Shown: one piece after another, positions 15,220-33,007 of the stretch
How positions within the stretch are numbered: the stretch's first letter is position 1
How the letters are laid out: each line of letters starts with the position of its first letter
Origin: an uncultured Actinomycetes bacterium
GTDB taxonomy: Bacteria > Actinomycetota > Actinomycetes > Nanopelagicales > Nanopelagicaceae
Direction: 5' to 3'
Assembly (NCBI GenBank): GCA_903827945.1
Contig: CAIKKN010000009.1
Span: 52,046-116,045 of the forward strand
Length of the DNA stretch: 64,000 nucleotides
The notes under the pieces: model-generated
What the model was told of the DNA's origin: nothing
The model's input: only the letters and a program-made list of their open reading frames with translations
The model's database searches: none
Translations under genes and position numbers: made by a program

Positions 15220-15239
15220 TTAGATGCTGAAAACAGCCC

Positions 15240-16491: not shown

Positions 16492-16517
16492 GAATTATTA
16501 AGACTTATAGACTCTAA

Positions 16518-19500: not shown

Positions 19501-19856
19501 CGCACGCGCTGATGAACCAGACGAACAACTAATCCAGGAAGCGCTATGGCGACAATGCGAATAAATTTCAACCCAAAAGCATTGAACGGCCCGAATCCCT
19601 TTACTGATGCTTTCTTCGCTGCATGATTAAAAATTGTGATGGCCTCGCGCATCGAGTGAATACGCATAACTTCGTCAGTCAAAGTAATAGTCACTTCAAT
19701 AGCTTTAGGATCCTTAAAAAGTCGACCAAAGCGCTTGCGATTCGCTTTCTCTCTGCGATTGCGAAGCTTTTCCGAAGTTTCAATCAATTCACGAGCGCGC
19801 TCCACAGAAGTTGTAGCAGTTTTGTCGATTGATTCATCGGTAAGCAGCGGTTCCAC
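16518..19856 (-). CDS. putA: bifunctional proline dehydrogenase / L-glutamate gamma-semialdehyde (P5C) dehydrogenase
   Basis: 1112 aa. The N-terminal half is proline-dehydrogenase-like. The C-terminal half is aldehyde dehydrogenase, with EPKQ-type GGKN (ETSGKNS) and catalytic-Cys (GQKCSA) motifs. No RHH DNA-binding domain is evident. Confidence 0.93.
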   Translation of the reverse strand: MEPLLTDESIDKTATTSVERARELIETSEKLRNRREKANRKRFGRLFKDPKAIEVTITLTDEVMRIHSMREAITIFNHAAKKASVKGFGPFNAFGLKFIRIVAIALPGLVVRLVHQRVRALSKDLILPAEQDRLSKHLGKRKEEGIRLNINVLGEAVLGQREADERFERLLEMITRPEVDYISVKLSAVVAQMITIDHSGSLEKVCAKLRTIYTAADEHGTFINLDMEEFRDLALTVDAFKRVLSEQNFLHIHAGIVLQAYLPESHAAFADLVAFAVERHKDQGGTIKVRLVKGANLAMEKAEGELHGYIPAPYGSKSDVDASYSRLVDVALRPEHAHAVRIGIASHNLFHLTWAIEVARSRGVLHQLDIEMLEGMANAEALAVTRSGHHVLFYTPVTNKDDFASAVAYLVRRLDENTSDENYLKAAFEIGSNPKKFAEQKLRFENSVRERHAISTKSRRHQPDPVDYSTFHNQSSGDPTEPTYIKAITEEIARVRKHDMTIPIVINGDEVTTNQCEDGTDPGDNGTVWYSYCVANEKIIDKAVSVAAKGLASWGAKSVAERQEILFNVASVMHAQRARTIAVMSRDAGKTVSEADPEVSEAIDFARYYASTGVENNDSKPMGVVLVVPPWNFPYAIPAGGVCAALAAGNTVILKPAPETVATAWLLAQQLWEGGVPHDALQFVPTRDDDSGKHLVTHDGVQALILTGAFETANMFVGWKSDLNLLAETSGKNSLVVSACADIDAAVKDLVQSAFGHAGQKCSAASLGIIVESIYKDPSFIRQLIDDVTTLKVGAGWDFGTTVGAVIRKPEGALLRALTTLDDGESWLVEPKQLDDAGTLWSPGVKVGIKAGSWSHQNEWFGPVLGLMVAPNLKTAIEWQNATNFGLTAGIHSLDADECALWMDSVEAGNLYINRGITGAIVQRQPFGGWKRSSVGANAKAGGPNYVHALRNWSPLQDSRAAKWSVDEWWKKVGSKAIDATGLSVEKNYQRYRKPLAPIIVRVDDSTSNEDISLINYIAQITGTEVLWSTASAESFDELISRSQFKVRWLSSETAPGAELMAKGVSLDTRPVAQRGDIEAPRWLLEQSVAITYHRYGNVNGGPKPICSGLDH

Positions 19857-19882
19857 GGTGTCCCAGTCTCTTGTTATAAAGT

Positions 19883-19904
19883 GTTCACCTAATCATCACC
19901 TAAA
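19883..19904 (+). promoter_or_regulatory. Candidate PHO box: two adjacent 11-nt direct repeats GTTCACCTAAT / CATCACCTAAA in the putA/FAD-oxidase divergent region
   Basis: TCACCTAA is repeated with exact 11-nt periodicity. The first unit carries the full GTTCACC core. The site lies 32 nt (ATG 19936) or 53 nt (ATG 19957) upstream of the oxidase gene. Confidence 0.45.
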
Positions 19905-19956
19905 AAGCAGCCTCAGCGCATCAGTACTTCACAAAATGAGCGTTAAATCTCTCACC

Positions 19957-21072
19957 ATGAAGCGGATTCTCGTAGTTGGCGGGGGGATTATCGGTTCTAT
20001 GCATGCCTACCTGGCGCTGAAAGCCGGACATGAAGTAATTCAGGTAGAACGCGACGAGGTCCCTAGCTCAGCCTCGGTTCGAAATTTTGGCCTTGTCTGG
20101 GTGAGCGGTCGTGAAAAAGGTGCAGAGCTTGAGCTTGCACTTCGAGCAAGAGAACTTTGGGGCGAAATTGGTTTAGAAGCTTCCATTGGATTTCGTGCTA
20201 ACGGTTCGCTAACAGTGGCCCAAAGTGATGTTGAATTTTCTCTCATGCAAGAAGCTGCCGCCATGCCTGATGCTGATCAGCGAGGTTTTGAAATTCTTCA
20301 CAAGCGTGAAGTTCAAGCTTTAGAACCAATGCTTGCGGGAAATTACATCGGCGCTCTTCGGTGCACAACCGATGCTGCCGTTGAGCCACTCCTTTTGCTT
20401 ACAGGATTAAGAGATTTCATGAAAAGAAGTGAGCGCTATACGTGGATTCCAAATTTTGATGTAGATAGCTTTACACATAACGAAAGCGGAAACCATATTT
20501 CGGATGTAACTGGGAAAACTATTTCCGGTGATTTCTTGGTTCTTTGTCCTGGCGCGGCGCATTCTGGCTTTCTTTCAGAGTACTTCAAAGATGCGCAAAT
20601 CCGAAAAGTATTTTTGCAAATGGGTGCCACGGTTCCAGTTGCTGAAAAACTTGGACACTCAGTAGCAGATGCGGACTCCATGCGTTATTACCCTGGCTTT
20701 AAGGATCTGTCGTTAGATCGTCTTCCTCCACAGTCAGAGCTTGCTCACGAGCATCACATGCAATTGTTGTTGGCTCCGCGATTCGATGGTTCATTTACAA
20801 TCGGTGATACGCATCTCTACAAAGAACCGTTTTCACATGAAATTATCGAAGAACCATACGAACACTTGAGTAAAGTCATCGCAAATATTTTTGGCCGTGA
20901 ATTCAAGATTGGCAAACGTTGGAGTGGGGTTTACAGTCAATCAACAAGCTCAGAAATCTATTTTCGCCGCGAAGTTGCACCTAGAGCGGTCATCGTGACT
21001 GGCGCAGGCGGCCGAGGAAATACTCTTTCACCAGCTATCGCAGAGGAGACAATCAAATCATGGGCGCTATAA
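19957..21072 (+). CDS. DAO-family FAD-dependent oxidoreductase of the type linked to phosphonatase-like genes (TIGR03364-like)
   Basis: Dinucleotide fold MKRILVVGGGIIGSMHAYLALKAGHEVIQVERD. The in-frame ATG 19936 is an alternative start. The ORF-track start 19735 overlaps putA. 13-nt overlap with the downstream PhnX-like gene. Confidence 0.8.
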   Translation: MKRILVVGGGIIGSMHAYLALKAGHEVIQVERDEVPSSASVRNFGLVWVSGREKGAELELALRARELWGEIGLEASIGFRANGSLTVAQSDVEFSLMQEAAAMPDADQRGFEILHKREVQALEPMLAGNYIGALRCTTDAAVEPLLLLTGLRDFMKRSERYTWIPNFDVDSFTHNESGNHISDVTGKTISGDFLVLCPGAAHSGFLSEYFKDAQIRKVFLQMGATVPVAEKLGHSVADADSMRYYPGFKDLSLDRLPPQSELAHEHHMQLLLAPRFDGSFTIGDTHLYKEPFSHEIIEEPYEHLSKVIANIFGREFKIGKRWSGVYSQSTSSEIYFRREVAPRAVIVTGAGGRGNTLSPAIAEETIKSWAL

Positions 21073-21752
21073 AACTCGTTGTTTTTGATGTAGCAGGCAC
21101 GACCGCAAAGGATGACGGCCTTGTTGTGAAGGCTTTTCGTGAATCAATGATTGAGCAAGGAATTGAGCGTGGATCCGCAGACTTGGCAGCCATGGAGAAA
21201 TATGTGATTGACACTATGGGTCAACGAAAAATGGATGTTTTTATGCACTTATGTGAGGGCGACGCGATTGCGGCCCAAGCCACTCACGAGATATTTATTG
21301 AGCAATACAACAACCTGGTGGCTAACGGTGAATTAGAAGAGTTTGAAGGCATTTCTCAACTCTTTGCAACTTTGCGCGCGAGCAACATTGGAGTGGCCAT
21401 CACGACAGGATTTCCTCGTGAGTTATTGACTGCAATCTTGAACGATCTCGATTGGCGCGATCGCATTGATCTCAGTGTGGCGTCGGATGAAGTCGCCGCG
21501 GGACGTCCAGCTCCTGACATGATTTTCCGTTCCATTGACTTGTATCGCAATCTTTCAAATCAGGAAATTGAACCAAGCAACGTAATAGTTGTTGGTGATA
21601 CGCAATCAGATATGGAAAGTGGAGTGAGCGCAGGTGCACGCTTTGTCGTCGGCGTAACTTCAGGGGCTCACAACGAGCTACAGCTAAAGGCGGCCGGTGC
21701 AACCCATGTGTTTACCGGAGCGGCTCAGTTGTTATCTCTTGTTAACGATTAA
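21060..21752 (+). CDS. phosphonatase-like HAD hydrolase (PhnX-like, TIGR03351-like)
   Basis: Motif I is DxAGT (VVFDVAGTT) rather than DxDxT. Cap-domain Lys in TMGQRKMD. Arg-type motif III AAGRPAPD. Motif IV VGDTQSDMESG. These are the deviations that distinguish phosphonoacetaldehyde-hydrolase-type enzymes from generic HADs. Confidence 0.8.
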   Translation: MGAIKLVVFDVAGTTAKDDGLVVKAFRESMIEQGIERGSADLAAMEKYVIDTMGQRKMDVFMHLCEGDAIAAQATHEIFIEQYNNLVANGELEEFEGISQLFATLRASNIGVAITTGFPRELLTAILNDLDWRDRIDLSVASDEVAAGRPAPDMIFRSIDLYRNLSNQEIEPSNVIVVGDTQSDMESGVSAGARFVVGVTSGAHNELQLKAAGATHVFTGAAQLLSLVND

Positions 21753-21864
21753 TTTACCTAGAACCCAAGAGTTAACCGACTAGTCGTCCAAATCAACCTT
21801 GCTTATTACCCCCGCTTTAACTTGCAGGTCTTTGATGCAACTACCAATCTCATAAGGGGGATTT

Positions 21865-23049
21865 ATGCGCAAGCGTTTACTTACAGGAGTTATCGCAGCC
21901 ACCGTGGCCGTAACTTCTTTAGTAGCAGTATCTAGCTCACAGGCAGCATCGATTGATTATTCCAAGTGCACAGACCTTAAGTCATGTGGCGGAATGGATG
22001 CTCTAGTAAAGGCAGCACAAAAAGAAGGCAAGCTCAATGTCATTACCATTCCTCGCGACTGGGCAAATTACGGAGAAGCACTTGACCTCTTCACAAAGGC
22101 TTTCGGAATCAAAATCGCTGATGACAATCCAGATGGATCTTCAGCATACGAAATTCAAACAGTAAAGACAGCTCCTAAGTCAAAGGCTCCAGATGCAGTT
22201 GACGTAGGTATCACATACGGCGCAGATAACGTAAACCTTTTTGCTCCTTACAAGGTTGCAACATGGAAAGATATTCCTGCACAGTGGAAAGAAGCTTCAG
22301 GACGTTGGGCTGGCGATTACTACGGCCAGATCGCACTTGCTTATGACACCTCAGTTACAAAAGCTCCTAAGTCATTTGCTGATCTGAAAGATCCTGCATT
22401 CAAGGGTCAAGTTGCTATTGGTGGAGATCCAACCGGCGCACAGGAAGCTTTGATGTCAGTATTCGCAGCGAATCTTGCTTCAGGTGGAACACCTGCAAAT
22501 ATCCAACCTGGCATTGATTACTTCAAGGGCCTCAAGGCTTCAGGTAACTTCGTTTCAGTTCTTGCAAACGGACAGAACCTCGCAGCTGGTGCCTACAAAG
22601 TTTCATTCTCATGGGACTTCAATGGCCCAGGAGCAATTGCTTCTGCAGCAAAGATCGGTAAGACCATCAAGTATGTAATTCCTACTGATGCTGTCATCAA
22701 GGGAACTCCATACATTATGGCGATTCCATTCAATGCTCCACACCCAGCAGCAGCTCGCTTGTGGTCTGAATTCCTATACTCACAGAACAAGGGCAAGACA
22801 TCAGCAACTCTTGGATCTGTAAAGGGCCTTTCAGGAAGCAAGATTTTCGCTTCAATTCAAGGTGGACAGAACATCTGGATTTCAGGTGCAGCTCACCCAA
22901 TCACAGAAGCAGCTATGAAGACAAAGGGCTTGGCAATTAACCCACCAGCAGGATTTGAAACTCCAGCAGGCGCAACGGTTGTTCTCCCAACACCAGATCA
23001 GCAAACAGCTGCTAAGGAACTTCTAAAGACACAATGGCCAAACCTCTAG
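21865..23049 (+). CDS. ABC transporter solute-binding protein (family 1; aminoalkylphosphonate/iron-type)
   Basis: 394 aa. Signal peptide MRKRLLTGVIAATVAVTSLVAVSSSQAAS. SD AAGGGGGA precedes the ATG. Confidence 0.85.
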   Translation: MRKRLLTGVIAATVAVTSLVAVSSSQAASIDYSKCTDLKSCGGMDALVKAAQKEGKLNVITIPRDWANYGEALDLFTKAFGIKIADDNPDGSSAYEIQTVKTAPKSKAPDAVDVGITYGADNVNLFAPYKVATWKDIPAQWKEASGRWAGDYYGQIALAYDTSVTKAPKSFADLKDPAFKGQVAIGGDPTGAQEALMSVFAANLASGGTPANIQPGIDYFKGLKASGNFVSVLANGQNLAAGAYKVSFSWDFNGPGAIASAAKIGKTIKYVIPTDAVIKGTPYIMAIPFNAPHPAAARLWSEFLYSQNKGKTSATLGSVKGLSGSKIFASIQGGQNIWISGAAHPITEAAMKTKGLAINPPAGFETPAGATVVLPTPDQQTAAKELLKTQWPNL

Positions 23050-23074
23050 TTCGTTAGATCTAGATAGGGGAGAA

Positions 23075-23932
23075 GTGGGAGACATGAGATTTAAGAAATA
23101 CTCATGGCTTCCACTTCTTCCTTTTTTTCTGTTTACTGGATATTTCTTACTCTGGCCGATTTTGGGAGTGACTCTTAGATCTCTGCATGATAATCATGGA
23201 AATTGGTCTCTCAGTAACTACACCCCACTTTTATCCGGCGCTTACCGCCACGCATTTGTTACAAGCATTCGTCTCAGCGTCATAACATCGGTTATTAGTT
23301 CTCTCCTTGGTGCTTTTTTCACATTAGTAATTGTTAAGAACGCTAGTTCAAGACTTACATCAATCATTGAGAGCGTTGCTGCAGTATTTGCAAACTCAGG
23401 TGGTGTGCCACTCGCATTTATGTATATTGCGGCATTTGGCGCCGAAGGTATGTTTACCAAGATTCTTAAATTTTTCGGCTGGGATATTTATGCCGGCCAC
23501 TTCACCTTATTTTCATTTACTGGCGTTGTGCTGGTTTATACATTCTTTATGACTCCACTCATGATTATTGTCTTTAGACCCGCGATCTTAGGATTGCGAA
23601 AGGAATGGTCTGAGGCAAGCCTCAATCTTGGCGCAACGAATCTGACATATTGGCGGCGAGTTGCAATACCAATTCTGACCCCGTCATTCATCGGGTCCTT
23701 TTTCTTACTTTTTGCCGGAGCATTCTCCGCTTATGCCACCGCTCGTGCGTTAACAGTGGGAACAGTGCCACTGGTACCAATCATCATTGGAACTCTTGTT
23801 GACGGAAATGTCATTTCTGATCAAGCAAATCTTGGAGATGCCCTTGCTGTAGGAATGATCTTTGTTGCGGGCATTGCCATGATTGGATATATATGGGCAC
23901 AACGTTCCGCAGCGAAATGGCGGCAGTCATGA
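23075..23932 (+). CDS. ABC transporter permease
   Basis: 285 aa and multi-TM. EAA-like loop (WSEASLNLGATNLTYWRRVAIP). GTG start 5 nt after GGGGAG. Confidence 0.88.
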   Translation: MGDMRFKKYSWLPLLPFFLFTGYFLLWPILGVTLRSLHDNHGNWSLSNYTPLLSGAYRHAFVTSIRLSVITSVISSLLGAFFTLVIVKNASSRLTSIIESVAAVFANSGGVPLAFMYIAAFGAEGMFTKILKFFGWDIYAGHFTLFSFTGVVLVYTFFMTPLMIIVFRPAILGLRKEWSEASLNLGATNLTYWRRVAIPILTPSFIGSFFLLFAGAFSAYATARALTVGTVPLVPIIIGTLVDGNVISDQANLGDALAVGMIFVAGIAMIGYIWAQRSAAKWRQS

Positions 23933-24717
23933 AAATTGGAAAATATTCGGTCAATGCATTTTCACTCTTCTTGGCGGGAACAATCTTTTTCCTCCCGTTG
24001 GTCGCTGCAGCAGAATTTAGTTTTAGAAAGCCGGGAGGCAAAGGTCACTCTTTTGTTAACTACACCTGGCTCCTTCAACAGGATGGTTTCTGGCCGGCTC
24101 TAGGTGCTTCGTTCCGCTTAGCAGTTCTATCTGGAGCGCTCAATCTGATTTTGATGGTTCCCACAATGGTTGTGCTGAATCTGAAAGCGAAGCGTTTCAA
24201 GTCAATTGTAGATTTCATTTGCATTCTTCCACTCATTATTCCAGTCGTATCTCTTGCAATTGGCGCACAGGTTTCGATGCCAGAATTCCTACAAAATACA
24301 GATTACGAACTTGTCTTCTTTTTTGTGATTGTTGCTCTTCCTTACACTTACCGAGCACTCGATTCTGCAATTAGCGCTGTAGATATTAAAGTCTTAGTTG
24401 AGGCATCTAGAAGCCTTGGAGCTAGCTGGTTCTCGACAATCATGAAGGTAATAATTCCTGCGATACGTACAGGAATCATCGGCTCCCTATTTCTCTCATT
24501 CGCCTTGGCAGTTGGAGAATTTACTTTGACTTCACTTCTTCACTGGGACACATTTCCTACTTGGACAGTCGTCGCAGCGCAGCAAAATATTCTGGGAGCG
24601 ATTGCGATTTCTGTCTTTTCTTTTGCACTCGCAATCTTTGTCCTGACATCAGTCGGAATATTGTCCGCGCGAAAGAAGAGTTTGAATTTAGTAATAGAAA
24701 CAGAAGAGGTGGAATAA
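23929..24717 (+). CDS. ABC transporter permease
   Basis: Start moved to ATG 23929 (ATGA overlap with the upstream stop). EAA-like loop (LVEASRSLGASWFSTIMKVIIP). Confidence 0.88.
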   Translation: MKIGKYSVNAFSLFLAGTIFFLPLVAAAEFSFRKPGGKGHSFVNYTWLLQQDGFWPALGASFRLAVLSGALNLILMVPTMVVLNLKAKRFKSIVDFICILPLIIPVVSLAIGAQVSMPEFLQNTDYELVFFFVIVALPYTYRALDSAISAVDIKVLVEASRSLGASWFSTIMKVIIPAIRTGIIGSLFLSFALAVGEFTLTSLLHWDTFPTWTVVAAQQNILGAIAISVFSFALAIFVLTSVGILSARKKSLNLVIETEEVE

Positions 24718-24719
24718 AA

Positions 24720-25790
24720 ATGGCAAAGCAACGATCTAGTAGCACTCTCAAGCTCGAAGGTGTTAGTCGCGCTTTTGGAACCACCCTTGCCTTAGATGGC
24801 TTAGACCTAACGGTTGAACCTGGCGAGCTTGTAGCTCTTCTCGGACCATCTGGGTGCGGAAAGACGACTGCGCTTCGAATTGTTGCAGGTCTTGAAACCG
24901 CTGACAGTGGTTCACTTCTCGTAAACGGGGTTCGGTATAACGAAACTCCGGTAAATGAACGAGATATGGGAATGGTCTTTCAGGCGTATTCACTCTTCCC
25001 AAATATGACTGTTGCAGAAAATATTGACTACGGCCTTCGCGCTCGAAAGATGGATCTTGCGAAGCGGATGAAGCAAGTGCGTAAGATGCTTCAACTAGTT
25101 GATCTTGAAGAGAAGAGCACTCGCTACCCCCACCAATTATCGGGTGGTCAACAGCAACGCGTTGCACTTGCCCGAGCACTTGCTATCGAACCGACTGTTC
25201 TATTACTCGATGAACCACTTTCCGCTCTTGATGCTCAAGTACGTTCACAAATTCGTGAGGAAATTCGCGCGATTCAGTTGGAGCTAGGAATCACAACTTT
25301 GTTTGTAACCCACGACCAAGAAGAAGCAATGGCAATCGCTGATCGCGTCGGTGTGATGAATAAAGGAAAATTAGAACAAATTGATAAGCCAACAATTCTC
25401 TACAACGAACCAGCAACTCCTTTTGTTGCATCATTTGTTGGGCAAGCAAACCGACTTCCTGCGACTATCACCGGTAAAGGTAATGTGAAAGTACTTCACC
25501 AAAAGATTTCACTTTCAAGGCATTCTTCCGATCTTCGTGACGGATTACCGGTAGAGGCGCTTATTCGCCCGGAGTCGATCACTTTAACCTCCGAGCAGGA
25601 TGAGGATGCAACTAACGGCTTGCTTATTTCTAAGTCATTCCTTGGCCCACTGACCAAGTTGGGTATCGCAGTCGAAGGCTTACCAATCGTGCATATCAAC
25701 TCACAAAGTAAAGATGTTAAAAGCCTAGAAATTGGCGACCGGATTTCATTCAAAATTGTTGCTGATGAAATCATGGCAAGAAATGTCTAA
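24720..25790 (+). CDS. ABC transporter ATP-binding protein
   Basis: Start at ATG 24720 after SD GAAGAGGTGG. Walker A GPSGCGKTT, signature LSGGQQQRVALARAL, Walker B LLLDEP. The ORF-track start 24561 lies inside the permease gene. Confidence 0.92.
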   Translation: MAKQRSSSTLKLEGVSRAFGTTLALDGLDLTVEPGELVALLGPSGCGKTTALRIVAGLETADSGSLLVNGVRYNETPVNERDMGMVFQAYSLFPNMTVAENIDYGLRARKMDLAKRMKQVRKMLQLVDLEEKSTRYPHQLSGGQQQRVALARALAIEPTVLLLDEPLSALDAQVRSQIREEIRAIQLELGITTLFVTHDQEEAMAIADRVGVMNKGKLEQIDKPTILYNEPATPFVASFVGQANRLPATITGKGNVKVLHQKISLSRHSSDLRDGLPVEALIRPESITLTSEQDEDATNGLLISKSFLGPLTKLGIAVEGLPIVHINSQSKDVKSLEIGDRISFKIVADEIMARNV

Positions 25791-27348
25791 TTTTGATTCT
25801 CGCGTCACAAAAATCGTTCGTGGGACAGCGAACGACAAAGGTTGGCGCAACCTGGAATTGGGTGAAGGTGAAGCCATTGAGGGGGTTTCACCTTCGTCCA
25901 ATGCCGAATCACTCTTAAGCCTTGTTCATATTTCAGATTTACATATTTGTGATGCGCAATCACCTGCTCGTTTAGAGTTACTTGATCGCCTAGCAGATCC
26001 TCATAATCCGATGTCAGAGATTGTGAAGTTAGTCGGTACATATCGTCCTAATGAAATGTTGACGACTCAAACGCTTGAGGCAATGGTCCAAACGATCAAC
26101 AGAATTGATCACGGAGTAGTAACAAATCGGCCAATTGATGCTGTCGTTGTCACGGGTGATGTGACGGACAATGCACAAGGAAATGAATTGGATTGGTATT
26201 TCACACTGATGGATGGAGGGGAACTTCTTCCAGACAGCGGTGATGCGTCCAGGTGGGAGGGACTTTCTTCGAACGATCCTGAAAGGTATGACACTTCATA
26301 TTGGAATCCGGATGGGACTCCCGAAGGCTGCGAAGATGATTTTCCAAGGTCTCTATACGGATTTCCCGTCGTCCCAGGGTTGCATGATGCGGTCAGAAAA
26401 AGTTTTGCTGCAACAGGATTGCGGCATAAGTGGTTTGCCACTCACGGAAACCATGACGCGCTGATTCAAGGCACGCTTCCGGGAGATGAAGCTGTTCGCA
26501 ATCACGCTGTAGGTTCTGAGAAACAGATTGCCCTTGCACCAGATACAGACCTATCCGAACTCTTTGCAAACTTTAACCAGGTTGGTCCAGTGACATACCC
26601 AGATCCACACGGAGCAGTGTTTAGAGAAATTACACCAGATCCTCGTCGACGGATTAATGAGCCTGACTCGTGGGCAAAAGTTCATCAGGTGTGTAATCAC
26701 GACCATGGACTAAATGAAGAGAACTCTTTGCGCGCTACCAAGTACTGGTACAGGGATATAAATGGGGTCAGGCTAGTTTCCTTGGATACCGTGAATCATC
26801 ATGGAGGTTGGCAAGGCTCTCTGGATCAATCACAATTTGAGTGGCTGAAAAAAGTATTGACAGATAAAGAACCCAAATATTTTGTAATTCTCTCGCACCA
26901 TCCCTCTTCGACACTTTTCAATCTGTACCAGCCCGAAGGTAGCGACAACAGAGTGGGCGAAACAGAGGTTGTTGAATTGCTGATGAATGAACCTCGAGTC
27001 ATTCTCTGGCTTGCGGGGCATAATCATGAACACAAGATTGAACGCTATGGCGATGAGTTTTCAGGATTTTGGCATATTCAAACCGCTTCAAACATCGATT
27101 GGCCTCAACAAGGACGGCTAGTTGAAATTCTCAAGGATGGAGAGAAAGTTGTTATTGCGACATCAGTCTTTGATCACCAAAGTCCCGTATCTCTTGACGA
27201 TGCGACAAGCAATATCGATAGCCCAGTCAATCTTGCCGGACTGTCTCGAGTGCTTGCAGCCAATGATTGGCAGCGCCGTAGCGGGGAATTCGATATCGAG
27301 AATTTAGCTGGTGAAAAATCTGACCGAAATCGTTTCCTCTGGTTGTAG
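25783..27348 (+). CDS. calcineurin-like metallophosphoesterase with long inserts (PPA1498/TIGR03767-like); no signal peptide seen
   Basis: Metallophosphoesterase blocks VHISDLHICD, VVTGDVTDN, ATHGNHDA, LSHHP and AGHNHEH. ATG 25783 overlaps the ATPase stop by 8 nt (ATGTCTAA). The N-terminus MSNFDSRVTKIVRGT has no twin-arginine or hydrophobic signal. Confidence 0.8.
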   Translation: MSNFDSRVTKIVRGTANDKGWRNLELGEGEAIEGVSPSSNAESLLSLVHISDLHICDAQSPARLELLDRLADPHNPMSEIVKLVGTYRPNEMLTTQTLEAMVQTINRIDHGVVTNRPIDAVVVTGDVTDNAQGNELDWYFTLMDGGELLPDSGDASRWEGLSSNDPERYDTSYWNPDGTPEGCEDDFPRSLYGFPVVPGLHDAVRKSFAATGLRHKWFATHGNHDALIQGTLPGDEAVRNHAVGSEKQIALAPDTDLSELFANFNQVGPVTYPDPHGAVFREITPDPRRRINEPDSWAKVHQVCNHDHGLNEENSLRATKYWYRDINGVRLVSLDTVNHHGGWQGSLDQSQFEWLKKVLTDKEPKYFVILSHHPSSTLFNLYQPEGSDNRVGETEVVELLMNEPRVILWLAGHNHEHKIERYGDEFSGFWHIQTASNIDWPQQGRLVEILKDGEKVVIATSVFDHQSPVSLDDATSNIDSPVNLAGLSRVLAANDWQRRSGEFDIENLAGEKSDRNRFLWL

Positions 27349-27367
27349 TTAGTGCTACAACTAGGTT

Positions 27368-29050
27368 GTGGGAAAAGACCTAGATTTTGATGTTGTCATC
27401 ATTGGCTCAGGATTCGGTGGATCAGTGGCAGCCCTCCGGCTTAGTGAAAAAGGCTACAAAGTCGCCGTCATCGAAGCGGGCCGGCGCTTTGCAGATACTG
27501 ATTTTCCTAAAACATCATGGCGGCTGAGGAGCTTTCTTTTTGCACCTCGCCTTGGCCTCAACGGCATCCAACGCATTCACGCTCTTCCCAATGTACTTGT
27601 GTTGGCAGGCGCCGGAGTTGGTGGCGGTTCACTTGTCTATGCAAACACTTTGTACACCCCTCCGGATACTTACTTCAACGATCTCCAATGGCGTCACATA
27701 ACGGATTGGAAAGCTGAACTCGCTCCTTGGTATGACCAAGCACATCGAATGCTGGGAGTTGTGAAGAATCCTCACATGACCCCATCAGATGTGGCAATGA
27801 AGGAAGTTGCGGATGAAATGGGAGTGGGGCACACATTTACATTGGCGCCGCTCGGAATCTATTTTGGTGAAGGATTTGGAATCAAGAAGGATGACCCGTT
27901 TTTTGGTGGTGTGGGACCATTACGCGAAGGCTGTCATCAATGCGGTGGCTGCATGACTGGATGTCGTTTCAATGCGAAGAACACATTGCCGAAAAATTAT
28001 CTTGGGCTAGCTGAACAAATCGGAGCAACCGTAATTCCCGAAACCACAGTCACTGCAATCAAAGAGGTAAATGGTTCGTGGATTGTCGAAGCCCGAAAAA
28101 GTAGTTCGTGGCTAGGAAGAAAAAAGAGATTTAGGGCAAGTCAGGTTGTAGTCGCTGGTGGAACATACAACACTCAAAAGTTACTCCATCGAATGAAAGA
28201 CAATGAGACCCTTCCAAGACTTTCAGACTTTTTAGGAAAGTTGTCCCGTACAAATAGTGAAGCGCTTACCGGCGCGCTTATGTCAAAGTCAGATATAGAT
28301 TATTCAGTGGGGGCTGCAATCACCTCCTCATTTCATCCTGATGAGCACACCCATGTAGAACCTGTGCGATATGGAAAAGGCAGTAACTCAATGGGGCTGT
28401 TGCAGACCATCATGACTGATGGAACCAAACTATCCTCGCGACACAAGCAATGGTGGGTAACAGTTTTAAAGAATCCCAAAATGCTTTATCGAATTTTAAA
28501 TGTGAAGTCATGGAGCGAGCGCACGGTTATCGCGCTGGTCATGCAAAACGTTGATTCCTCAATCTCCGTAAAGGGTAAAAAGGGATTATTGAGACCGTGG
28601 AAGTTAACCTCTGAAAATGATTCAGAGCATCCAAATGCTACTTATATTCCAGCGGCTAACGATGTAGTCCGGCGCATTGCAAAAAATCGCGGTGGAATTC
28701 CTGGCGGCAACATTGGAGATTTAGTGAATGCCCCATTTACTGCTCACTTTGTCGGAGGTTGCGTTATCGGAGACTCCGAGAAGACCGGAGTGATTGATCC
28801 GTATCACCGCGTTTGGAATTACCCGACCTTGCACATCGTTGATGGCTCAAGTGTTACTGCCAATTTAGGGGTGAATCCTTCTCTCACCATCACGGCGCAA
28901 GCAGAGCGCGCAATGAGCCTCTGGCCAAACAAGGGGGAGGCCGACGCTCGCCCCCGGCAAGGTGATGAGTACAAGCGCTGCAAATCGATCTTTCCCCAGA
29001 CTCCAGCAGTCCCGCTTCACGCTCAGGGCGCCCTTTCTAACCCCACCTAG
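27368..29050 (+). CDS. GMC-family FAD oxidoreductase (cholesterol-oxidase/ChoD-like)
   Basis: N-terminal DFDVVIIGSGFGGSVAALRLSEKGYKVAVIEAG. C-terminal GMC block HRVWNYPTLHIVDGSSVTANLGVNPSLTITAQAERA. GTG start 19 nt after the metallophosphoesterase stop. Confidence 0.85.
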   Translation: MGKDLDFDVVIIGSGFGGSVAALRLSEKGYKVAVIEAGRRFADTDFPKTSWRLRSFLFAPRLGLNGIQRIHALPNVLVLAGAGVGGGSLVYANTLYTPPDTYFNDLQWRHITDWKAELAPWYDQAHRMLGVVKNPHMTPSDVAMKEVADEMGVGHTFTLAPLGIYFGEGFGIKKDDPFFGGVGPLREGCHQCGGCMTGCRFNAKNTLPKNYLGLAEQIGATVIPETTVTAIKEVNGSWIVEARKSSSWLGRKKRFRASQVVVAGGTYNTQKLLHRMKDNETLPRLSDFLGKLSRTNSEALTGALMSKSDIDYSVGAAITSSFHPDEHTHVEPVRYGKGSNSMGLLQTIMTDGTKLSSRHKQWWVTVLKNPKMLYRILNVKSWSERTVIALVMQNVDSSISVKGKKGLLRPWKLTSENDSEHPNATYIPAANDVVRRIAKNRGGIPGGNIGDLVNAPFTAHFVGGCVIGDSEKTGVIDPYHRVWNYPTLHIVDGSSVTANLGVNPSLTITAQAERAMSLWPNKGEADARPRQGDEYKRCKSIFPQTPAVPLHAQGALSNPT

Positions 29051-29105
29051 GGGTGATAAAAAAGGGTTATAGAAAAAAGCCTCTCACCCCTGCGAAACTG
29101 AAGGT

Positions 29106-31709
29106 ATGGGGACATCAAAGAAGAGCGTTAAAGCAGATATTTTCCTGCCTGTCCTCGATGGGGTTCCACTAGCTCGAATCACAAGACCGATGGCGTTACC
29201 AAACGCGATCTATCGAAGCTACCTTATTGAAAAAATCTTGCAACCCGCTCCTCATGCAACTCTCATTGTTGCTCCAAGTGGGTTTGGGAAAACAACACTT
29301 GCAACTCAAGCCGCTGAGGCTGCCGAAGCATCAGGTGAATATGTTGTCTTTTACACAGTTGAAGAATTAGACACCGTCCTTGATACGTGTAGGAATGTCA
29401 CTTCGGCGCTGAGGTTGCAGGTCCCAAATTTTGCGCCGTGGGCAGAAGAATTTTTCGCAGGAGATTTTCATGGCGTCGATTGGGTAGTGCGAATATGCAA
29501 TGACATATCCAGAAGCTCCAAGACTTTCTTTTTTATATGGGATGGCGCACAAAATTACAGTGAAGCCCATTCTGGAATGCTTCAGAGTTTTATCAACTTG
29601 ATGCCGAACAATGTCCGAATTTTGACTTTGAGAAACATTCCGCCCAGAGCATCGTATGCAAAAATTGCAAGTCAAGGAAACTTTACTTATCTTACTGCAA
29701 AGGACTTACAATTCTGCTCAGAAGATACTGCAGAGATTGCAAAACAGAATGGTTTAGATTATTCAAATAAAGAAATTTCTTCTGTATTCCAGAAGGTGCA
29801 CAGTTGGCCTTTGGGTGTAAAAATTATCGCCTCTTCACTCGCAAGAGAAAATGCAGATACGACAATTGCGAGTTTCGAGGATAAAACTTTGATTTCTCAT
29901 GCAATTGATCTCTTAGATTGCGATGATCGTGATTTCTTAGAGAAAATTTCTCTTTTAGATGCAGTTTCGGCCGATGAGGCTTTTCAAATCACTAAGTTTC
30001 CTGACACTGGGATGAGATTAAACAAATTGCGTGAAAGCGGTACTTTCATCTCTCAAAAATCTATAAATCCTTCACGTTTTTCCATTAATCCACTTATCCG
30101 CGAACAATTAGCGGCGCGAGTTTATTCTGACAGTAAGAAGCTTGCGGATATTGGGTATCCATCAATTGACGTTGCAATTAATGCAGGCAAGCCCCTTAAA
30201 GCGATTTCCTTACTTGCCGCTCTTGGTGAAGAAAAGCGCGCAGAAGCGCTTGCCTGGCAAAATGTTTACCAGATAATGATGTCGGGAGATGCAGAATTTC
30301 TGAGCATGTGGGTTGAAAGGAAGAAGGTTGATGATAAAGATGACATCTTTCTCATCGCACTTTTAAAGATCTATATAAAGTTAATTTCATTTGATGTTGA
30401 TTCTGGTCGAGCACTATTGAATGAACTTGAAAATGATTTGTCAATGTCAGCGGAAGTACAAAAATTTGAAGATGAAATTGGACTTGTGCGAGCAAGATAT
30501 GAATTTTGGGTCGGAAACTTTAAGGAGTGCATACGTCTTTCAACGAAGAATAAAGTTTTAAGGGTCATTCAACGCGATGGATTGCCAGGAGCTGTTGCTC
30601 GAGGAATGTTGCCAGCCCTCGAATCTGCGTTTATTTTGCAAGATAGGAAAGTTTTTGATGAAATATTCCAAAATGTAATGGCAATCTCGAGCGACGTAAC
30701 CCCGCATCATCAGAAGTTGGTGCTTCCACAAATGCGTGCCATGGATGCATTTCTTGATGGTAGATTTAGAGAGGCGTTAGATCATGCCAATTTGGCGCTC
30801 GGCTCTTTCGAGAGTCTAAATGTAAAAGGCATCTACATACCTTATTCCGCTGCTTACGTAGCGGCAGATGTACTGCTTGAATATGGCGAAGATAATAAAT
30901 CTGTTGAGATGTCAGAGAAATACTTACAACTTGCAATCAAGGCGCAACAGTGGCCTTGGGTAGTCGCTTTCTATTCTAGAATGGCCCTAGCCAAAATTTA
31001 TCAAGGTGAAACAAACGTTGCGATTTCCCTAATTCAAGAATCTCGCGAATGGACGTCTAGCTCGCAATTTAATTCACAAATCAACATTCTTTCAGATTTT
31101 ATTGAAATTCTTGCTCGTGCCCAATTGGGTGACGTTGGTAGAATTTATGAATTGCTTGATCGCGGAATAGAAACCCCAGCGACTTTGACACTTCGTACCG
31201 TTCTTGAAGCAAGACAGAATTCAAAAGATGCCCTGAAGCTTCTAGGAGGCCTTCCTGAAAGCACGCCTCATCAAAAATTCATTAAGAGTGTTTTATTATT
31301 AGAAGCAACAACTGATCCGAAAACTGCGCTTCCTCTTTTAGAAACCGCTCTACAGATAGGACGCGAGAACGGTTATTTTAGATCCTTCCTTAACTTAAGT
31401 CCCGTGTCGAAGAATCTTATTTTGAATTACGCAAATGTGCATCCAACTGTATTTAACGAAAATTTGGCACGAAGTATTAGAAATCAGATGAAAAATGTTC
31501 AGACCATTGACAATAAATCCTCACTTACCAAGCGCGAATTAGATATTTTAAGACGTCTGGCAACGGGACTTCCTATCACGCAAATTGCCGCCGCTCTTCA
31601 CATTTCAAATAACACTATTAAGACGCACCTCAAGAATGTTTACCGAAAAATGAATGTAGAGTCTCGAGACGAGGCTGTTAGCCGCGGGCGAGATTTAGCT
31701 TTGCTCTAG
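29106..31709 (+). CDS. LAL-family (large ATP-binding, MalT-like) LuxR transcriptional regulator
   Basis: 867 aa. N-terminal P-loop VAPSGFGKTTLATQ, a long helical/TPR-like middle region, and a C-terminal LuxR HTH LTKRELDILRRLATGLPITQIAAALHISNNTIKTHLKNVYRKMNV. Confidence 0.85.
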   Translation: MGTSKKSVKADIFLPVLDGVPLARITRPMALPNAIYRSYLIEKILQPAPHATLIVAPSGFGKTTLATQAAEAAEASGEYVVFYTVEELDTVLDTCRNVTSALRLQVPNFAPWAEEFFAGDFHGVDWVVRICNDISRSSKTFFFIWDGAQNYSEAHSGMLQSFINLMPNNVRILTLRNIPPRASYAKIASQGNFTYLTAKDLQFCSEDTAEIAKQNGLDYSNKEISSVFQKVHSWPLGVKIIASSLARENADTTIASFEDKTLISHAIDLLDCDDRDFLEKISLLDAVSADEAFQITKFPDTGMRLNKLRESGTFISQKSINPSRFSINPLIREQLAARVYSDSKKLADIGYPSIDVAINAGKPLKAISLLAALGEEKRAEALAWQNVYQIMMSGDAEFLSMWVERKKVDDKDDIFLIALLKIYIKLISFDVDSGRALLNELENDLSMSAEVQKFEDEIGLVRARYEFWVGNFKECIRLSTKNKVLRVIQRDGLPGAVARGMLPALESAFILQDRKVFDEIFQNVMAISSDVTPHHQKLVLPQMRAMDAFLDGRFREALDHANLALGSFESLNVKGIYIPYSAAYVAADVLLEYGEDNKSVEMSEKYLQLAIKAQQWPWVVAFYSRMALAKIYQGETNVAISLIQESREWTSSSQFNSQINILSDFIEILARAQLGDVGRIYELLDRGIETPATLTLRTVLEARQNSKDALKLLGGLPESTPHQKFIKSVLLLEATTDPKTALPLLETALQIGRENGYFRSFLNLSPVSKNLILNYANVHPTVFNENLARSIRNQMKNVQTIDNKSSLTKRELDILRRLATGLPITQIAAALHISNNTIKTHLKNVYRKMNVESRDEAVSRGRDLALL

Positions 31710-32938: not shown

Positions 32939-33007
32939 CTATTTTCTCCGTTACAGGGGAGCTCTATTGGTCACCATTGAATCCAGTCTCAGTCTACTGT
33001 TTCTCCT

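What the first reader, a model, noticed from the sequence alone, without database searches (positions are those of the whole stretch)
19936..29050. Oxidase + PhnX-like C-P hydrolase + ABC importer + signal-less metallophosphoesterase + GMC oxidase: candidate organophosphonate/ester scavenging pathway
Eight co-directional genes are tightly packed, with overlaps of 13 nt, ATGA and 8 nt, and gaps of 112, 25, 2 and 19 nt.

The HAD protein shows the three deviations that mark phosphonoacetaldehyde-hydrolase-type enzymes, all readable in the translation:
- DxAGT (FDVAGTT)
- a cap-domain Lys (MGQRKMD)
- an Arg in AAGRPAPD

It is paired with a DAO-family FAD oxidase rather than the PhnW transaminase. 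From memory, curated family descriptions (TIGR03364/TIGR03351) propose an aminoalkylphosphonate other than plain 2-AEP as the substrate.

The unusual part is the extension of this pair:
- A 521-aa metallophosphoesterase is translationally coupled to the ABC ATPase.
- This family is usually Tat-exported, as I recall, but this copy has no signal peptide under either candidate start.
- A GMC alcohol/sterol-type oxidase follows 19 nt later.

This suggests the imported compound is an esterified phosphonate or phosphate, such as a phosphonolipid head-group fragment. It would need cytoplasmic ester cleavage and alcohol or amine oxidation before C-P hydrolysis. I know of no characterised pathway with this composition.
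Basis: partly seen in the sequence, partly recalled or inferred. Interest (0 to 1): 0.7.

Follow-up and report, generated by a model that had tools for sequence, protein, structure and literature searches.

The report
Phosphonate-scavenging operon with built-in cytoplasmic phosphoesterase
A freshwater actinobacterium carries a phosphorus-scavenging operon that joins a known two-enzyme route for breaking the C-P bond of aminoethylphosphonate to an importer and a conserved, uncharacterised cytoplasmic phosphoesterase, while the oxidase gene next door is only a chromosomal neighbour.

Summary
The sequence observation is correct at the stated coordinates. All family guesses hold:
- a PbfD/TIGR03364-type FAD amine oxidase
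- a PhnX-like HAD (TIGR03351)
- a PotD/PhnS-class ABC importer
- a signal-less TIGR03767 metallophosphoesterase (MPE)
- a GMC oxidoreductase

The window comes from a freshwater Nanopelagicales (acI) actinobacterium.

The oxidase + PhnX pair is no longer unknown. PbfD enzymes oxidise 2-AEP and N-methyl-AEP to phosphonoacetaldehyde (Zangelmi 2023).

The new part is the MPE, which is a conserved operon member:
- The ABC ATPase lies directly upstream in 65 of 69 species-level genomes.
- PbfD and PhnX-like lie upstream in 42 and 43 of 45.
- A PhnZ-type phosphonate oxygenase overlaps its stop codon in 13 of 65.
- One contig has a tight pbfD-phnX-MPE trio with the transporter divergent.
- The ABC-MPE pair also occurs without PbfD/PhnX.
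- In two relatives glpD precedes the MPE.

The MPE's fold neighbours are phosphodiesterases (SMPDL3A, Rv0805, GpdQ). A conserved PHO-box-like direct repeat precedes pbfD.

The GMC gene is not a pathway member. It sits in a conserved backbone, occurs without the operon, and is adjacent downstream in only about 12% of genomes.

The MPE substrate is unknown. My best inference is ester cleavage of imported phosphono- or phospho-diesters. This is a new variant of a known kind, of moderate interest.

The parts
19883..19904 (+). PHO-box-like operator. It consists of two 11-nt direct repeats, GTTCACCTAAT CATCACCTAAA, ending 53 nt before the pbfD ATG.
   Evidence: - It is the only exact match to TTCAYCTN5TCAYCT in the window.
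- The same motif (consensus AATTCACCT-N4/5-TCACCT) lies 59-91 nt (one locus 115 nt) upstream of pbfD in nearly all loci of the 58-92% MPE-identity group, even though the upstream gene differs.
- It matches the Streptomyces PhoP direct-repeat-unit consensus GTTCACC with 11-nt units (PMC2691820).
- Binding has not been tested.
19957..21072 (+). pbfD-like FAD-dependent amine oxidase (alternative start 19936).
   Evidence: - Pfam DAO, 144 bits.
- Best NCBIfam hit TIGR03364, 272.4 bits against a cut-off of 285.1.
- 27% identity (E=1e-36) over the full length to the characterised PbfD2 of M. fucicola. That sequence was read from Fig S2 of PMC10590968.
- Present upstream of the MPE in 42/45 species loci.
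21060..21752 (+). PhnX-like phosphonoacetaldehyde-hydrolase-type HAD enzyme. It overlaps pbfD by 13 nt.
   Evidence: - TIGR03351 193.2 bits (cut-off 218.9), against TIGR01422 at 80 and the beta-PGM family at 42.
- Best PDB sequence hits are B. cereus phosphonoacetaldehyde hydrolase.
- DxAGT, the cap Lys57 and Arg149 are invariant.
21865..23049 (+). Secreted substrate-binding protein of the ABC importer (PotD/PhnS/AfuA structural class). The ligand is unknown.
   Evidence: - Pfam SBP_bac_6.
- Only weak hits to PhnS: 39 bits against a cut-off of 310.
- AF2 model pLDDT 85.9. The best fold match is 5T1P (ligand unknown), followed by Fe-, sugar-phosphate-, AEP (STM0429)- and polyamine-binding proteins.
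23075..23932 (+). ABC permease 1.
   Evidence: Weak hits to PhnU/PotB/CysT permeases. Syntenic in all operon copies.
23893..24717 (+). ABC permease 2 (the ATGA-overlap start is at 23929).
   Evidence: Pfam BPD_transp_1. Syntenic in all operon copies.
24720..25790 (+). ABC ATPase, with an 8-nt overlap onto the MPE start.
   Evidence: - Best NCBIfam hit TIGR03265 (PhnT2), 401.5 bits against a cut-off of 457.7.
- It lies directly upstream of the MPE in 65/69 species loci.
- The same 8-nt overlap is seen in L001, L006, L065 and L089/L090.
25783..27348 (+). Signal-less (cytoplasmic) TIGR03767-family metallophosphoesterase. It is the new, conserved member of the operon.
   Evidence: - TIGR03767 361.1 bits, above the cut-off of 330.75.
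- All metal-binding motifs are invariant: D52/H54, D126, N223/H224, H372/H373, H413/H415.
- The AF2 model has pTM 0.82. Its fold neighbours are SMPDL3A, Lmo2642, Rv0805 (TM 0.71 on target), aSMase and GpdQ (0.61).
27368..29050 (+). Cytoplasmic GMC flavoprotein (cholesterol-oxidase-like). It is probably co-transcribed here, but it is a backbone neighbour rather than a pathway member.
   Evidence: - GMC_oxred_N/C domains; NF058674 546 bits against a cut-off of 850.
- 74-76% identical in hundreds of relatives.
- Found next to NDH2 without the operon in L095, and upstream of pbfD in L096, L040, L050 and L063.
- Immediately downstream of the MPE in only 7/46 species loci.
29106..31709 (+). MalT/LuxR-type (LAL) regulator. 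It often follows the operon; a possible specific regulator, unproven.
   Evidence: - GerE and MalT-like domains.
- It follows the MPE directly in L043, L046 and L096, and follows GMC in L001, L008, L010, L011, L023 and L032.
- It is absent in many other loci, and identity between copies is only 29-51%.

Best explanation
The core is a seven-gene operon, 19957-27348, probably induced by phosphate starvation, in a freshwater Nanopelagicales actinobacterium. It takes up an organophosphonate or organophosphate and releases phosphate from it. The steps below are marked as inferred unless stated.

1. A PHO-box-like direct repeat upstream of pbfD puts the operon under a PhoP-type regulator (inferred).
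2. The ABC importer brings in an aminoalkyl-phosphonate-type compound, free or esterified. The ligand is unknown.
3. The cytoplasmic TIGR03767 metallophosphoesterase is translationally coupled to the ATPase. It cleaves an ester bond on the imported molecule. The most likely substrate is a (glycero)phosphono- or phospho-diester head-group fragment, which would release free 2-AEP-type phosphonate (inferred).
4. The PbfD-like FAD oxidase converts 2-AEP or N-methyl-AEP to phosphonoacetaldehyde. This is inferred by homology to characterised PbfD enzymes.
5. The PhnX-like HAD hydrolyses the C-P bond to give acetaldehyde + Pi. This is inferred from its conserved Schiff-base Lys, DxAGT and Arg.

The GMC oxidoreductase that follows is probably read through in this genome, but it is a conserved chromosomal neighbour and not a step of the pathway.
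For: **Family assignments.**

**MPE is an operon member, species-level genomes.**
- ATPase directly upstream in 65/69 loci.
- PbfD upstream in 42/45 and PhnX-like in 43/45.
- This holds at MPE identities from 92% down to 44%.

**Independent metagenome set.** ATPase adjacent in at least 57/71 contigs; PbfD and PhnX-like in 25/30.

**MPE is embedded among phosphonate genes.** A PhnZ-type HD oxygenase (TIGR03276, 199.5 bits) overlaps the MPE stop by 4-10 nt in most of the 13 of 65 species loci that carry it, and it follows the MPE in 8/63 metagenome loci.

**The neighbourhood survives rearrangement.**
- L150 has the transporter divergent and pbfD-phnX-MPE joined by 4-nt overlaps.
- L147, L169 and L171 have the MPE convergent with the transporter.

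**Ester cleavage.**
- All MPE metal ligands are invariant.
- The nearest folds are phosphodiesterases: SMPDL3A, Rv0805, aSMase and GpdQ.
- GlpD sits immediately upstream of the MPE in L147 and L081.
- Phosphodiesterases such as GpdQ are known to hydrolyse phosphonate monoesters (PMC9371700).

**Cytoplasmic location.**

**Operator.**

**GMC excluded.**

**PbfD chemistry.** PMC10590968.
Against: - No substrate is known for any TIGR03767 protein, and nothing here identifies the SBP ligand.
- The ABC-MPE pair occurs without PbfD/PhnX (L089/L090, L172/L173). The MPE also occurs alone (L004, L017, L053, L093). The MPE's primary substrate may therefore be an ordinary phosphate ester.
- The oxidase, HAD and ATPase all score just below their curated family cut-offs.
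- The oxidase is only 27% identical to a characterised PbfD.
- TIGR03351-type PhnX-like proteins have not, to my knowledge, been assayed themselves.
- Most synteny evidence comes from one order (Nanopelagicales), so part of it reflects shared descent.
- The two-repeat PHO-box form is not evident in the 44-50% identity group.
- No pst promoter was available for comparison.
Confidence: 0.55

Rival explanations
1. Two modules share one operon but not one substrate. The ABC importer and MPE form an older module for phosphate esters, such as glycerophosphodiesters (GPE/GPC/GPG) or other diesters, which yield G3P or Pi. PbfD and PhnX-like were added in Nanopelagicales to handle free 2-AEP or N-methyl-AEP taken up by the same or another transporter. 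The MPE never sees a phosphonate.
For: - ABC-MPE occurs with the same 8-nt overlap but without PbfD/PhnX in a 62%-GC lineage (L089/L090) and in L172/L173.
- glpD-MPE pairs in L147 and L081 point to G3P as a product.
- Fold neighbours are phosphate diesterases.
- The same window holds another ABC operon that ends in a cytoplasmic GDPD-IMPase fusion, so this design logic is used here for phosphate esters.
Against: - In L150 the MPE stays fused to pbfD-phnX while the transporter is on the other strand.
- PhnZ is translationally coupled to the MPE's 3' end in 13 species.
- The seven-gene order is kept down to 44% MPE identity.
Confidence: 0.25
2. The imported ester needs MPE cleavage plus a GMC-catalysed alcohol or amine oxidation before C-P hydrolysis. 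For example, the GMC would act as a flavin-dependent 2-hydroxyethylphosphonate oxidase making phosphonoacetaldehyde, a third class beside PhpC and PbfG.
For: - There is a 19-nt gap and no terminator between the MPE and GMC here.
- GMC is within a few kb of the operon in several lineages, on either side. It is downstream in L008, L010, L011, L013, L014, L022 and L032, upstream in L026, L040, L050, L063 and L096, and also nearby in the 56-58%-GC contigs L111 and L141.
- HEP oxidation to phosphonoacetaldehyde is a real pathway entry, done elsewhere by NAD-dependent dehydrogenases (PMC13576164).
Against: - GMC is absent within 10 kb in most operon-bearing genomes. Of 22 loci with wide flanks, 7 have one.
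- It occupies the same GMC-NDH2-epimerase-decarboxylase-GroEL backbone without any operon in L095.
- It is far more conserved (74-76%) than the operon proteins.
- When it lies upstream, it is outside the PHO-box-like operator.
- The operon ends at the MPE, with dcd next, in 17 species loci.
Confidence: 0.07
3. The MPE is a housekeeping or signalling phosphodiesterase, for example a cyclic-nucleotide or 2',3'-cNMP phosphodiesterase like Rv0805. Its position after the ABC ATPase would be inherited gene order without functional coupling.
For: - Rv0805 and Lmo2642 are among the best fold matches.
- The MPE stands alone between DUF885 and NDH2 in L004/5, L017 and L053, and in unrelated contexts in L091 and L093.
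Against: - The start/stop overlaps with the ATPase and with PhnZ are conserved.
- Adjacency to pbfD/phnX or to the transporter is retained through at least four different rearrangements.
- The MPE is missing from many genomes' backbone, so it is not universally housekeeping.
Confidence: 0.08

Closest known systems
PbfD-PhnX hydrolytic 2-AEP pathway (PbfD2 of Mariniblastus fucicola; Zangelmi et al. 2023, PMC10590968)
   Same: - An FAD amine oxidase of the TIGR03364/PbfD group replaces the PhnW transaminase.
- It is paired with a phosphonoacetaldehyde-hydrolase-type HAD and transporter genes.
- PhnZ homologues are occasional companions, as in related loci here.
   Different: - The oxidase here is only 27% identical to PbfD2.
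- The host phylum (Actinomycetota, Nanopelagicales) does not appear in that paper's main text or in the one supplement file held as text.
- The operon carries a conserved cytoplasmic TIGR03767 metallophosphoesterase. None of the phosphonate-catabolism papers searched mentions one.
GpdQ of Enterobacter aerogenes and the Ugp/UgpQ logic (ABC import of a phosphodiester followed by cytoplasmic cleavage)
   Same: - A cytoplasmic binuclear metallophosphoesterase lies downstream of an ABC importer.
- The fold is similar (TM 0.61 on GpdQ).
- GpdQ-type phosphodiesterases also cleave phosphonate monoesters (PMC9371700).
- glpD neighbours in relatives L147 and L081 suggest a glycerol-phosphate product.
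   Different: - There is no significant sequence similarity (E about 0.1).
- The protein here is twice as long, with large inserts and an N-terminal beta domain.
- The transporter is of the PotD/PhnS class, not the UgpB class.
- The link of GpdQ to a ugp-like operon is from my memory and was not checked here.
TIGR03767 family metallophosphoesterases of Cutibacterium and Streptomyces (secreted 'MPP', PMC9723661)
   Same: It scores above the family cut-off (361 against 331 bits) and has the same catalytic motifs.
   Different: - Those are described as secreted (Tat) enzymes that solubilise external organic P.
- This clade has no signal peptide and is fused into an importer operon, so it must act on imported substrate.
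PhnSTUV / PhnS2T2U2 / AepXVW-AepSTU 2-AEP ABC transporters
   Same: - Same ABC subclass.
- The ATPase's best hit is PhnT2.
- The SBP's only NCBIfam hits are PhnS models.
- STM0429 (PhnS) is among the fold matches.
   Different: - All components fall below the family cut-offs. The SBP scores 39 bits against 310 and has no PhnS2 hit.
- The closest structure, 5T1P, has no known ligand.

Membership tests
PbfD / TIGR03364 FAD-dependent aminophosphonate oxidase | PF01266 DAO fold with an N-terminal GxGxxG FAD site. | tested here: met
   Pfam DAO 144 bits over residues 10-372. The sequence VVGGGIIGS lies at the N-terminus.
PbfD / TIGR03364 FAD-dependent aminophosphonate oxidase | Score at or above the curated TIGR03364 cut-off. 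| tested here: not met
   272.4 bits against a cut-off of 285.1. It is still by far the best hit; the next is ThiO at 89 bits.
PbfD / TIGR03364 FAD-dependent aminophosphonate oxidase | Full-length homology to a biochemically characterised PbfD. | tested here: met
   - 27% identity, E=1e-36, end to end with PbfD2 of M. fucicola.
- 23% identity, E=1e-18, with PbfD1 of A. baumannii.
- Both reference sequences were read from an OCR copy of Fig S2, so identities are approximate.
PbfD / TIGR03364 FAD-dependent aminophosphonate oxidase | Genomic pairing with phnX (or phnY/phnA) and no phnW. | tested here: met
   There is a 13-nt overlap with the PhnX-like gene. The pairing is seen in 41/45 species loci.
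PbfD / TIGR03364 FAD-dependent aminophosphonate oxidase | Oxidises 2-AEP or N-methyl-AEP to phosphonoacetaldehyde. | not testable with these tools
   This needs an enzyme assay.
PhnX-like hydrolase (TIGR03351) / phosphonoacetaldehyde hydrolase mechanism | DxAGT nucleophile motif, cap-domain Schiff-base Lys, and Arg in place of the usual HAD Lys. | tested here: met
   - D10, A12, G13, T14, K57 and R149 are invariant in 12 operon copies.
- They align with D12/A14, K53 and R160 of B. cereus PhnX.
Its C-terminal half is confirmed by PDB hit 2IOF.
PhnX-like hydrolase (TIGR03351) / phosphonoacetaldehyde hydrolase mechanism | Score at or above the curated TIGR03351 cut-off. | tested here: not met
   193.2 bits against a cut-off of 218.9. 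It is the best hit; true PhnX (TIGR01422) scores 80 and generic phosphatases 68 or less.
PhnX-like hydrolase (TIGR03351) / phosphonoacetaldehyde hydrolase mechanism | Hydrolyses the C-P bond of phosphonoacetaldehyde. | not testable with these tools
   This needs an enzyme assay.
TIGR03767 metallophosphoesterase | Score at or above the curated cut-off, and the calcineurin-type metal-binding motifs. | tested here: met
   361.1 bits against a cut-off of 330.75. The motifs DxH, GD, GNHD, H and GHxH are invariant.
TIGR03767 metallophosphoesterase | N-terminal Tat signal.
   - The N-terminus has no RR motif and no hydrophobic segment.
- All of the 11 homologues sampled into alignment A1 (51-81% identical) and the nearest ~25 cluster representatives also lack one.
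- The signal lies outside the region covered by the HMM.
GpdQ-type glycerophosphodiesterase (works-like comparison) | Sequence or fold membership, and a glycerophosphodiester substrate. | tested here: inconclusive
   - Fold match E=1.6e-6, TM 0.61 on the target.
- Sequence E=0.1, which is not significant.
- glpD is adjacent to MPE orthologues in L147 and L081.
- The substrate has not been tested.
Known 2-AEP ABC importers (PhnSTUV, PhnS2T2U2) | Components reach the equivalog cut-offs. | tested here: not met
   SBP 39/310 and 37/395 bits. Permeases 34-49 bits against cut-offs of 247-359. ATPase 401.5/457.7.
Cholesterol oxidase ChoxAB (NF058674) / GMC oxidoreductases | GMC N- and C-terminal domains, and the equivalog cut-off. 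| tested here: inconclusive
   - The GMC domains are present.
- NF058674 scores 546 against a cut-off of 850, so this is not an equivalog.
- PDB cholesterol oxidases match only the C-terminal ~100 residues.
- It is a GMC family member with unknown substrate.
Actinobacterial PHO box (PhoP operator) | Two or more 11-nt direct repeat units with the core GTTCACC, upstream of a P-scavenging operon. | tested here: met
   - The site at 19883-19904 reads GTTCACCTAAT CATCACCTAAA.
- It is conserved in relatives.
- The consensus is taken from PMC2691820.
- PhoP binding and P-regulation cannot be tested here.

The most novel reading that the evidence does not exclude
The signal-less TIGR03767 enzyme is a dedicated phosphonate-ester hydrolase. 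It would be a further 'phosphonate breakdown factor', beyond PbfA-G, that frees 2-AEP, N-methyl-AEP or hydroxy-AEP from imported deacylated phosphonolipid or phosphonoglycan head groups such as glycero-3-(2-aminoethyl)phosphonate. This would be the first catabolic route that starts from the esterified form in which most natural phosphonate actually exists. It would sit in acI/Nanopelagicales, which I recall (not checked here) as one of the most abundant bacterial groups in lakes.
Probability: 0.3. Interest if true: 0.72.

Novelty: new variant of a known kind. Interest (0 to 1): 0.5.

Why it matters
Natural 2-AEP is mostly bound as an ester in phosphonolipids and phosphonoglycans. All characterised hydrolytic pathways nevertheless start from the free acid. 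How the ester is removed, and where, is essentially undescribed.

A phosphoesterase that is fixed inside a PbfD/PhnX(/PhnZ) operon is a concrete, testable candidate for that missing step. It is translationally coupled to the importer ATPase and conserved across a whole order of abundant lake bacteria.

The finding also gives a first functional context for the uncharacterised TIGR03767 family. It shows that genome-streamlined acI Actinobacteria carry genes for phosphonate mineralisation, which bears on freshwater phosphorus cycling.

If the MPE acts only on phosphate diesters, the operon is still a tidy example of modular assembly of P-scavenging functions. It would then not be surprising.

Tried and rejected
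1. **GMC as a pathway member: rejected.** The synteny tables and the L095/L096 contexts argue against it.
2. **Identifying the importer's ligand: inconclusive.**
   - PDB sequence search and an AF2 model plus Foldseek were tried.
   - The best match, 5T1P, has no known ligand. The remaining matches mix Fe3+, sugar-phosphate, AEP and polyamine binders.
3. **Internal promoters or terminators in 19600-32000: nothing found.** Counts were at shuffle expectation. A 7-bp hairpin spans the MPE stop but has no T-run.
4. **Rfam on the window and three loci: only tRNAs.**
   - The conserved block upstream of pbfD in the 44-50% group is largely the 5' end of a divergent acyl-CoA dehydrogenase gene.
5. **Literature search for any described metallophosphoesterase in phosphonate clusters, or for phosphonate genes in Nanopelagicales/Planktophila: nothing relevant**.
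6. **Reaching non-Nanopelagicales relatives through a metagenome scan seeded with distant MPEs: partly successful.**
   - It mostly returned lake Actinobacteria again.
   - It did supply the informative rearranged loci L147, L150, L169, L171 and L172.
7. **The MIP + LMWPc genes after the MPE in L091 as a glycerol link: dropped.** The pair is an aquaglyceroporin/ArsC-type arsenic module.

Full report
**1.

- a 13-nt overlap between the oxidase and the HAD
- a 112-nt gap before the binding protein, then a 25-nt gap
- an ATGA overlap between the permeases, if the second starts at 23929
- a 2-nt gap, then an 8-nt overlap between the ATPase and the metallophosphoesterase (MPE)
- a 19-nt gap before the GMC gene

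The three HAD motifs are present. The MPE N-terminus has neither a twin-arginine motif nor a hydrophobic segment under any start.

One small correction concerns the oxidase start. Close relatives lack the 19936 ATG, and their called genes are 371 aa. The oxidase therefore more likely starts at 19957.

**2. What the genes are**

NCBIfam and Pfam scans confirm every family guess.

| Gene | Best family | Score / cut-off | Runner-up |
|---|---|---|---|
| Oxidase | TIGR03364 | 272 / 285 bits | ThiO 89 |
| HAD | TIGR03351 'PhnX-like' | 193 / 219 bits | true PhnX 80; beta-phosphoglucomutase family 42 |
| ATPase | PhnT2 | 401 / 458 bits | - |
| MPE | TIGR03767 | 361 / 331 bits | - |
| GMC protein | cholesterol-oxidase-like | 546 / 850 bits | - |

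- The binding protein and permeases hit 2-AEP transporter models only weakly.
- The HAD's best solved relatives are Bacillus cereus phosphonoacetaldehyde hydrolase.
- In an alignment of 12 operon copies, D10, A12, G13, T14, K57 and R149 are invariant. They align with the nucleophile motif, Schiff-base lysine and arginine of the B. cereus enzyme.

The window has 46% G+C. Its nearest relatives are freshwater Nanopelagicales (acI) MAGs and genomes.

**3. What is already known**

The oxidase + PhnX pair is no longer an orphan.
- Zangelmi et al. 2023 (PMC10590968) showed that PbfD enzymes oxidise N-methyl-AEP and 2-AEP to phosphonoacetaldehyde. One of those enzymes is annotated TIGR03364.
- They also showed that pbfD-phnX constitutes a complete alternative pathway.
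- The window's oxidase is 27% identical (E=1e-36, end to end) to the characterised PbfD2. I read that sequence from the paper's supplementary alignment, so the identity is approximate.
- None of the phosphonate-catabolism papers I could search mentions a metallophosphoesterase or a GMC enzyme.
- I found no report of phosphonate degradation genes in Nanopelagicales.

**4. The MPE is a conserved operon member**

*Species-level genomes.* I took the 80 best species-level genome loci encoding an MPE relative. I located homologues of all window proteins in them by tblastn.
- The ABC ATPase lies directly upstream of the MPE in 65 of 69 loci with enough flank.
- PbfD is upstream in 42 of 45, and PhnX-like in 43 of 45.
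- This holds while MPE identity falls from 92% to 44% and the flanking genes change. The upstream gene is PutA, GMC, a tRNA or an acyl-CoA dehydrogenase. The downstream gene is dcd, NDH2, a regulator or GMC.

*Metagenome contigs.* An independent set of 80 contigs gives the same picture.

*The MPE is embedded among phosphonate genes.* In 13 of 65 species loci, a PhnZ-type phosphonate HD-oxygenase follows the MPE and in most of them overlaps its stop codon by 4-10 nt. It scores 199.5 bits on TIGR03276 and also hits TmpB. The same gene follows the MPE in 8 of 63 metagenome loci.

*The neighbourhood survives rearrangement.*
- In L150 the transporter is divergent, and pbfD, phnX-like and the MPE form a trio joined by 4-nt overlaps.
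- In L147, L169 and L171 the MPE is convergent with the transporter.

*The MPE-transporter link is older than the link to pbfD/phnX.*
- A 62%-GC lineage (L089/L090, 42% MPE identity) has SBP-permease-permease-ATPase-MPE with the same 8-nt overlap but no pbfD/phnX. The same is true of L172/L173.
- The MPE also occurs alone in some genomes (L004/5, L017, L053, L093).

**5. What the MPE may do**

- All binuclear-centre ligands are invariant.
- An AlphaFold model (pLDDT 75, pTM 0.82) is most similar to phosphodiesterase-type metallophosphoesterases:
  - SMPDL3A and acid sphingomyelinase
  - Lmo2642
  - Rv0805 (TM 0.71 normalised on the target)
  - GpdQ (TM 0.61)
- Profile-sequence hits to the PDB point the same way, but weakly.
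- In L147 and L081, MPE orthologues (45-48% identical) are immediately preceded by a glycerol-3-phosphate dehydrogenase gene (344.5 bits against a 360 cut-off). This hints that glycerol phosphate is a product in that clade.
- Phosphodiesterases such as GpdQ are known to cleave phosphonate monoesters (PMC9371700).

Taken together, the most economical inference is this. The MPE cleaves an ester bond on the imported organophosphorus compound, either a phosphodiester or its phosphonate-monoester analogue such as a deacylated phosphonolipid head group. That releases free aminophosphonate for PbfD, PhnX-like and, where present, PhnZ.

This is inference only. No TIGR03767 protein has a known substrate. 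The binding protein's ligand could not be narrowed down either. Its best structural match, 5T1P, has no known ligand, and the other matches include Fe3+, sugar-phosphate, AEP (STM0429) and polyamine binders.

**6. The signal peptide**

- The 11 homologues (51-81% identical) sampled from the 120 closest database homologues into alignment A1 all lack a signal; all 120 are of similar length.
- So do the nearest ~25 cluster representatives. More distant family members mostly carry Tat signals.
- By a simple heuristic, 61 of 129 full-length representatives are signal-less and 45 are Tat-like.
- The cytoplasmic state therefore defines a large clade. It is not a peculiarity of this gene.

**7. Regulation**

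- A 22-nt site at 19883-19904, GTTCACCTAAT CATCACCTAAA, is the only exact match to its pattern in the window.
- It recurs as AATTCACCT-N4/5-TCACCT 59-91 nt (one locus 115 nt) upstream of pbfD in nearly all loci of the 58-92% identity group, whatever gene lies upstream.
- It matches the actinobacterial PhoP operator: 11-nt direct repeat units with core GTTCACC (PMC2691820).
- Simple scans found no internal promoters or terminators above chance.
- P-starvation control is thus likely but unproven.
- The two-repeat form is not obvious in the 44-50% identity group.

**8. The GMC gene is a neighbour, not a pathway member**

- It is immediately downstream of the MPE in only 7 of 46 species loci, or 8 of 65 with shorter flanks.
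- In L040, L050, L063 and L096 it lies directly upstream of pbfD, outside the operator. In L026 it is further upstream, and in L023, L027 and L028 it is displaced downstream. Most loci have none within 10 kb.
- In L095 it occupies the same backbone as in the window (GMC, NDH2 on the minus strand, epimerase, PLP decarboxylase, DUF3263, GroEL) with no operon nearby.
- It is 74-76% identical across hundreds of relatives, far more conserved than the operon proteins.
- The stretch between DUF885 and NDH2 is evidently a variable spot into which the operon is inserted on either side of the GMC gene.
- In this genome the 19-nt gap makes read-through likely, so a moonlighting role cannot be excluded. 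One example would be a flavin-dependent 2-hydroxyethylphosphonate oxidase, a step done elsewhere by the NAD-dependent PhpC/PbfG enzymes (PMC13576164). Nothing supports it, however.

**9. Verdict**

The finding is real.
- Its core is a known kind of system: the PbfD/PhnX hydrolytic phosphonate pathway with an importer.
- Its GMC extension is not supported.
- Its MPE extension is genuine, conserved and undescribed in the literature I could search.

I rate it a new variant of a known kind, of moderate interest (0.5). It offers a specific and cheap biochemical test for the missing ester-cleavage step of natural phosphonate catabolism, in a very abundant freshwater lineage. The mechanism remains inferred, and an ordinary phosphate-diesterase role is a serious rival.

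Noticed in passing
window 10945-16388 (minus strand): A second ABC importer operon: SBP, two permeases and a PhnT2-like ATPase (340 bits). It ends in a 502-aa fusion of an N-terminal GlpQ/UgpQ-like glycerophosphodiesterase segment with a C-terminal inositol-monophosphatase/HisN-like domain. The design logic is the same: import, then cytoplasmic phosphoester cleavage.
   Followed up: no
L006/L007 11607-12155; also L012, L015, L016, L019, L026, L029-L031, L033, L034, L038, L041, L042, L050, L054: A PhnZ/TmpB-type phosphonate HD-domain oxygenase directly follows the MPE gene in related operons, usually overlapping its stop codon. No PhnY*/TmpA-like hydroxylase was noticed among the called genes of the locus examined (L006/L007). 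The window itself has no copy.
   Followed up: partly
L147 8245-9936 and L081 2796-4496: A glycerol-3-phosphate dehydrogenase (GlpD) gene lies immediately upstream of the MPE orthologue (abutting or overlapping in L147, a 4-nt gap between the tblastn hits in L081). In L147 the homologous ABC operon is convergent.
   Followed up: partly
window ~16500-33000 compared with L004, L095, L096: The stretch between a DUF885 gene and the NDH2/epimerase/decarboxylase/DUF3263/GroEL backbone is a variable spot. Depending on the genome it holds the MPE alone, GMC alone, or various orders of PutA, the operon, GMC, a LAL regulator and MreB.
   Followed up: partly
L012 4014-4085; also L020 and L032 upstream of pbfD: A tRNA gene ends just upstream of the operon's PHO-box-like site in some genomes. 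This is compatible with the operon being a mobile or recombination-prone cassette.
   Followed up: no
window 27342-27361: A perfect 7-bp inverted repeat, GTTGTAG-ttagtg-CTACAAC, spans the MPE stop codon just before the GMC GTG start. No T-run follows, so it is not a canonical terminator.
   Followed up: no
L150 7716-9377: In the rearranged locus with the pbfD-phnX-MPE trio, the next gene gives a weak PhoX alkaline-phosphatase Pfam hit (41 bits). This is another P-scavenging neighbour.
   Followed up: no
window 29106-31709: An 867-aa MalT/LuxR (LAL-type) regulator follows the cluster. Fast-evolving homologues (29-51% identity) follow the operon in several but not all relatives, and are absent where the operon is absent (L095, L004).
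   Followed up: partly
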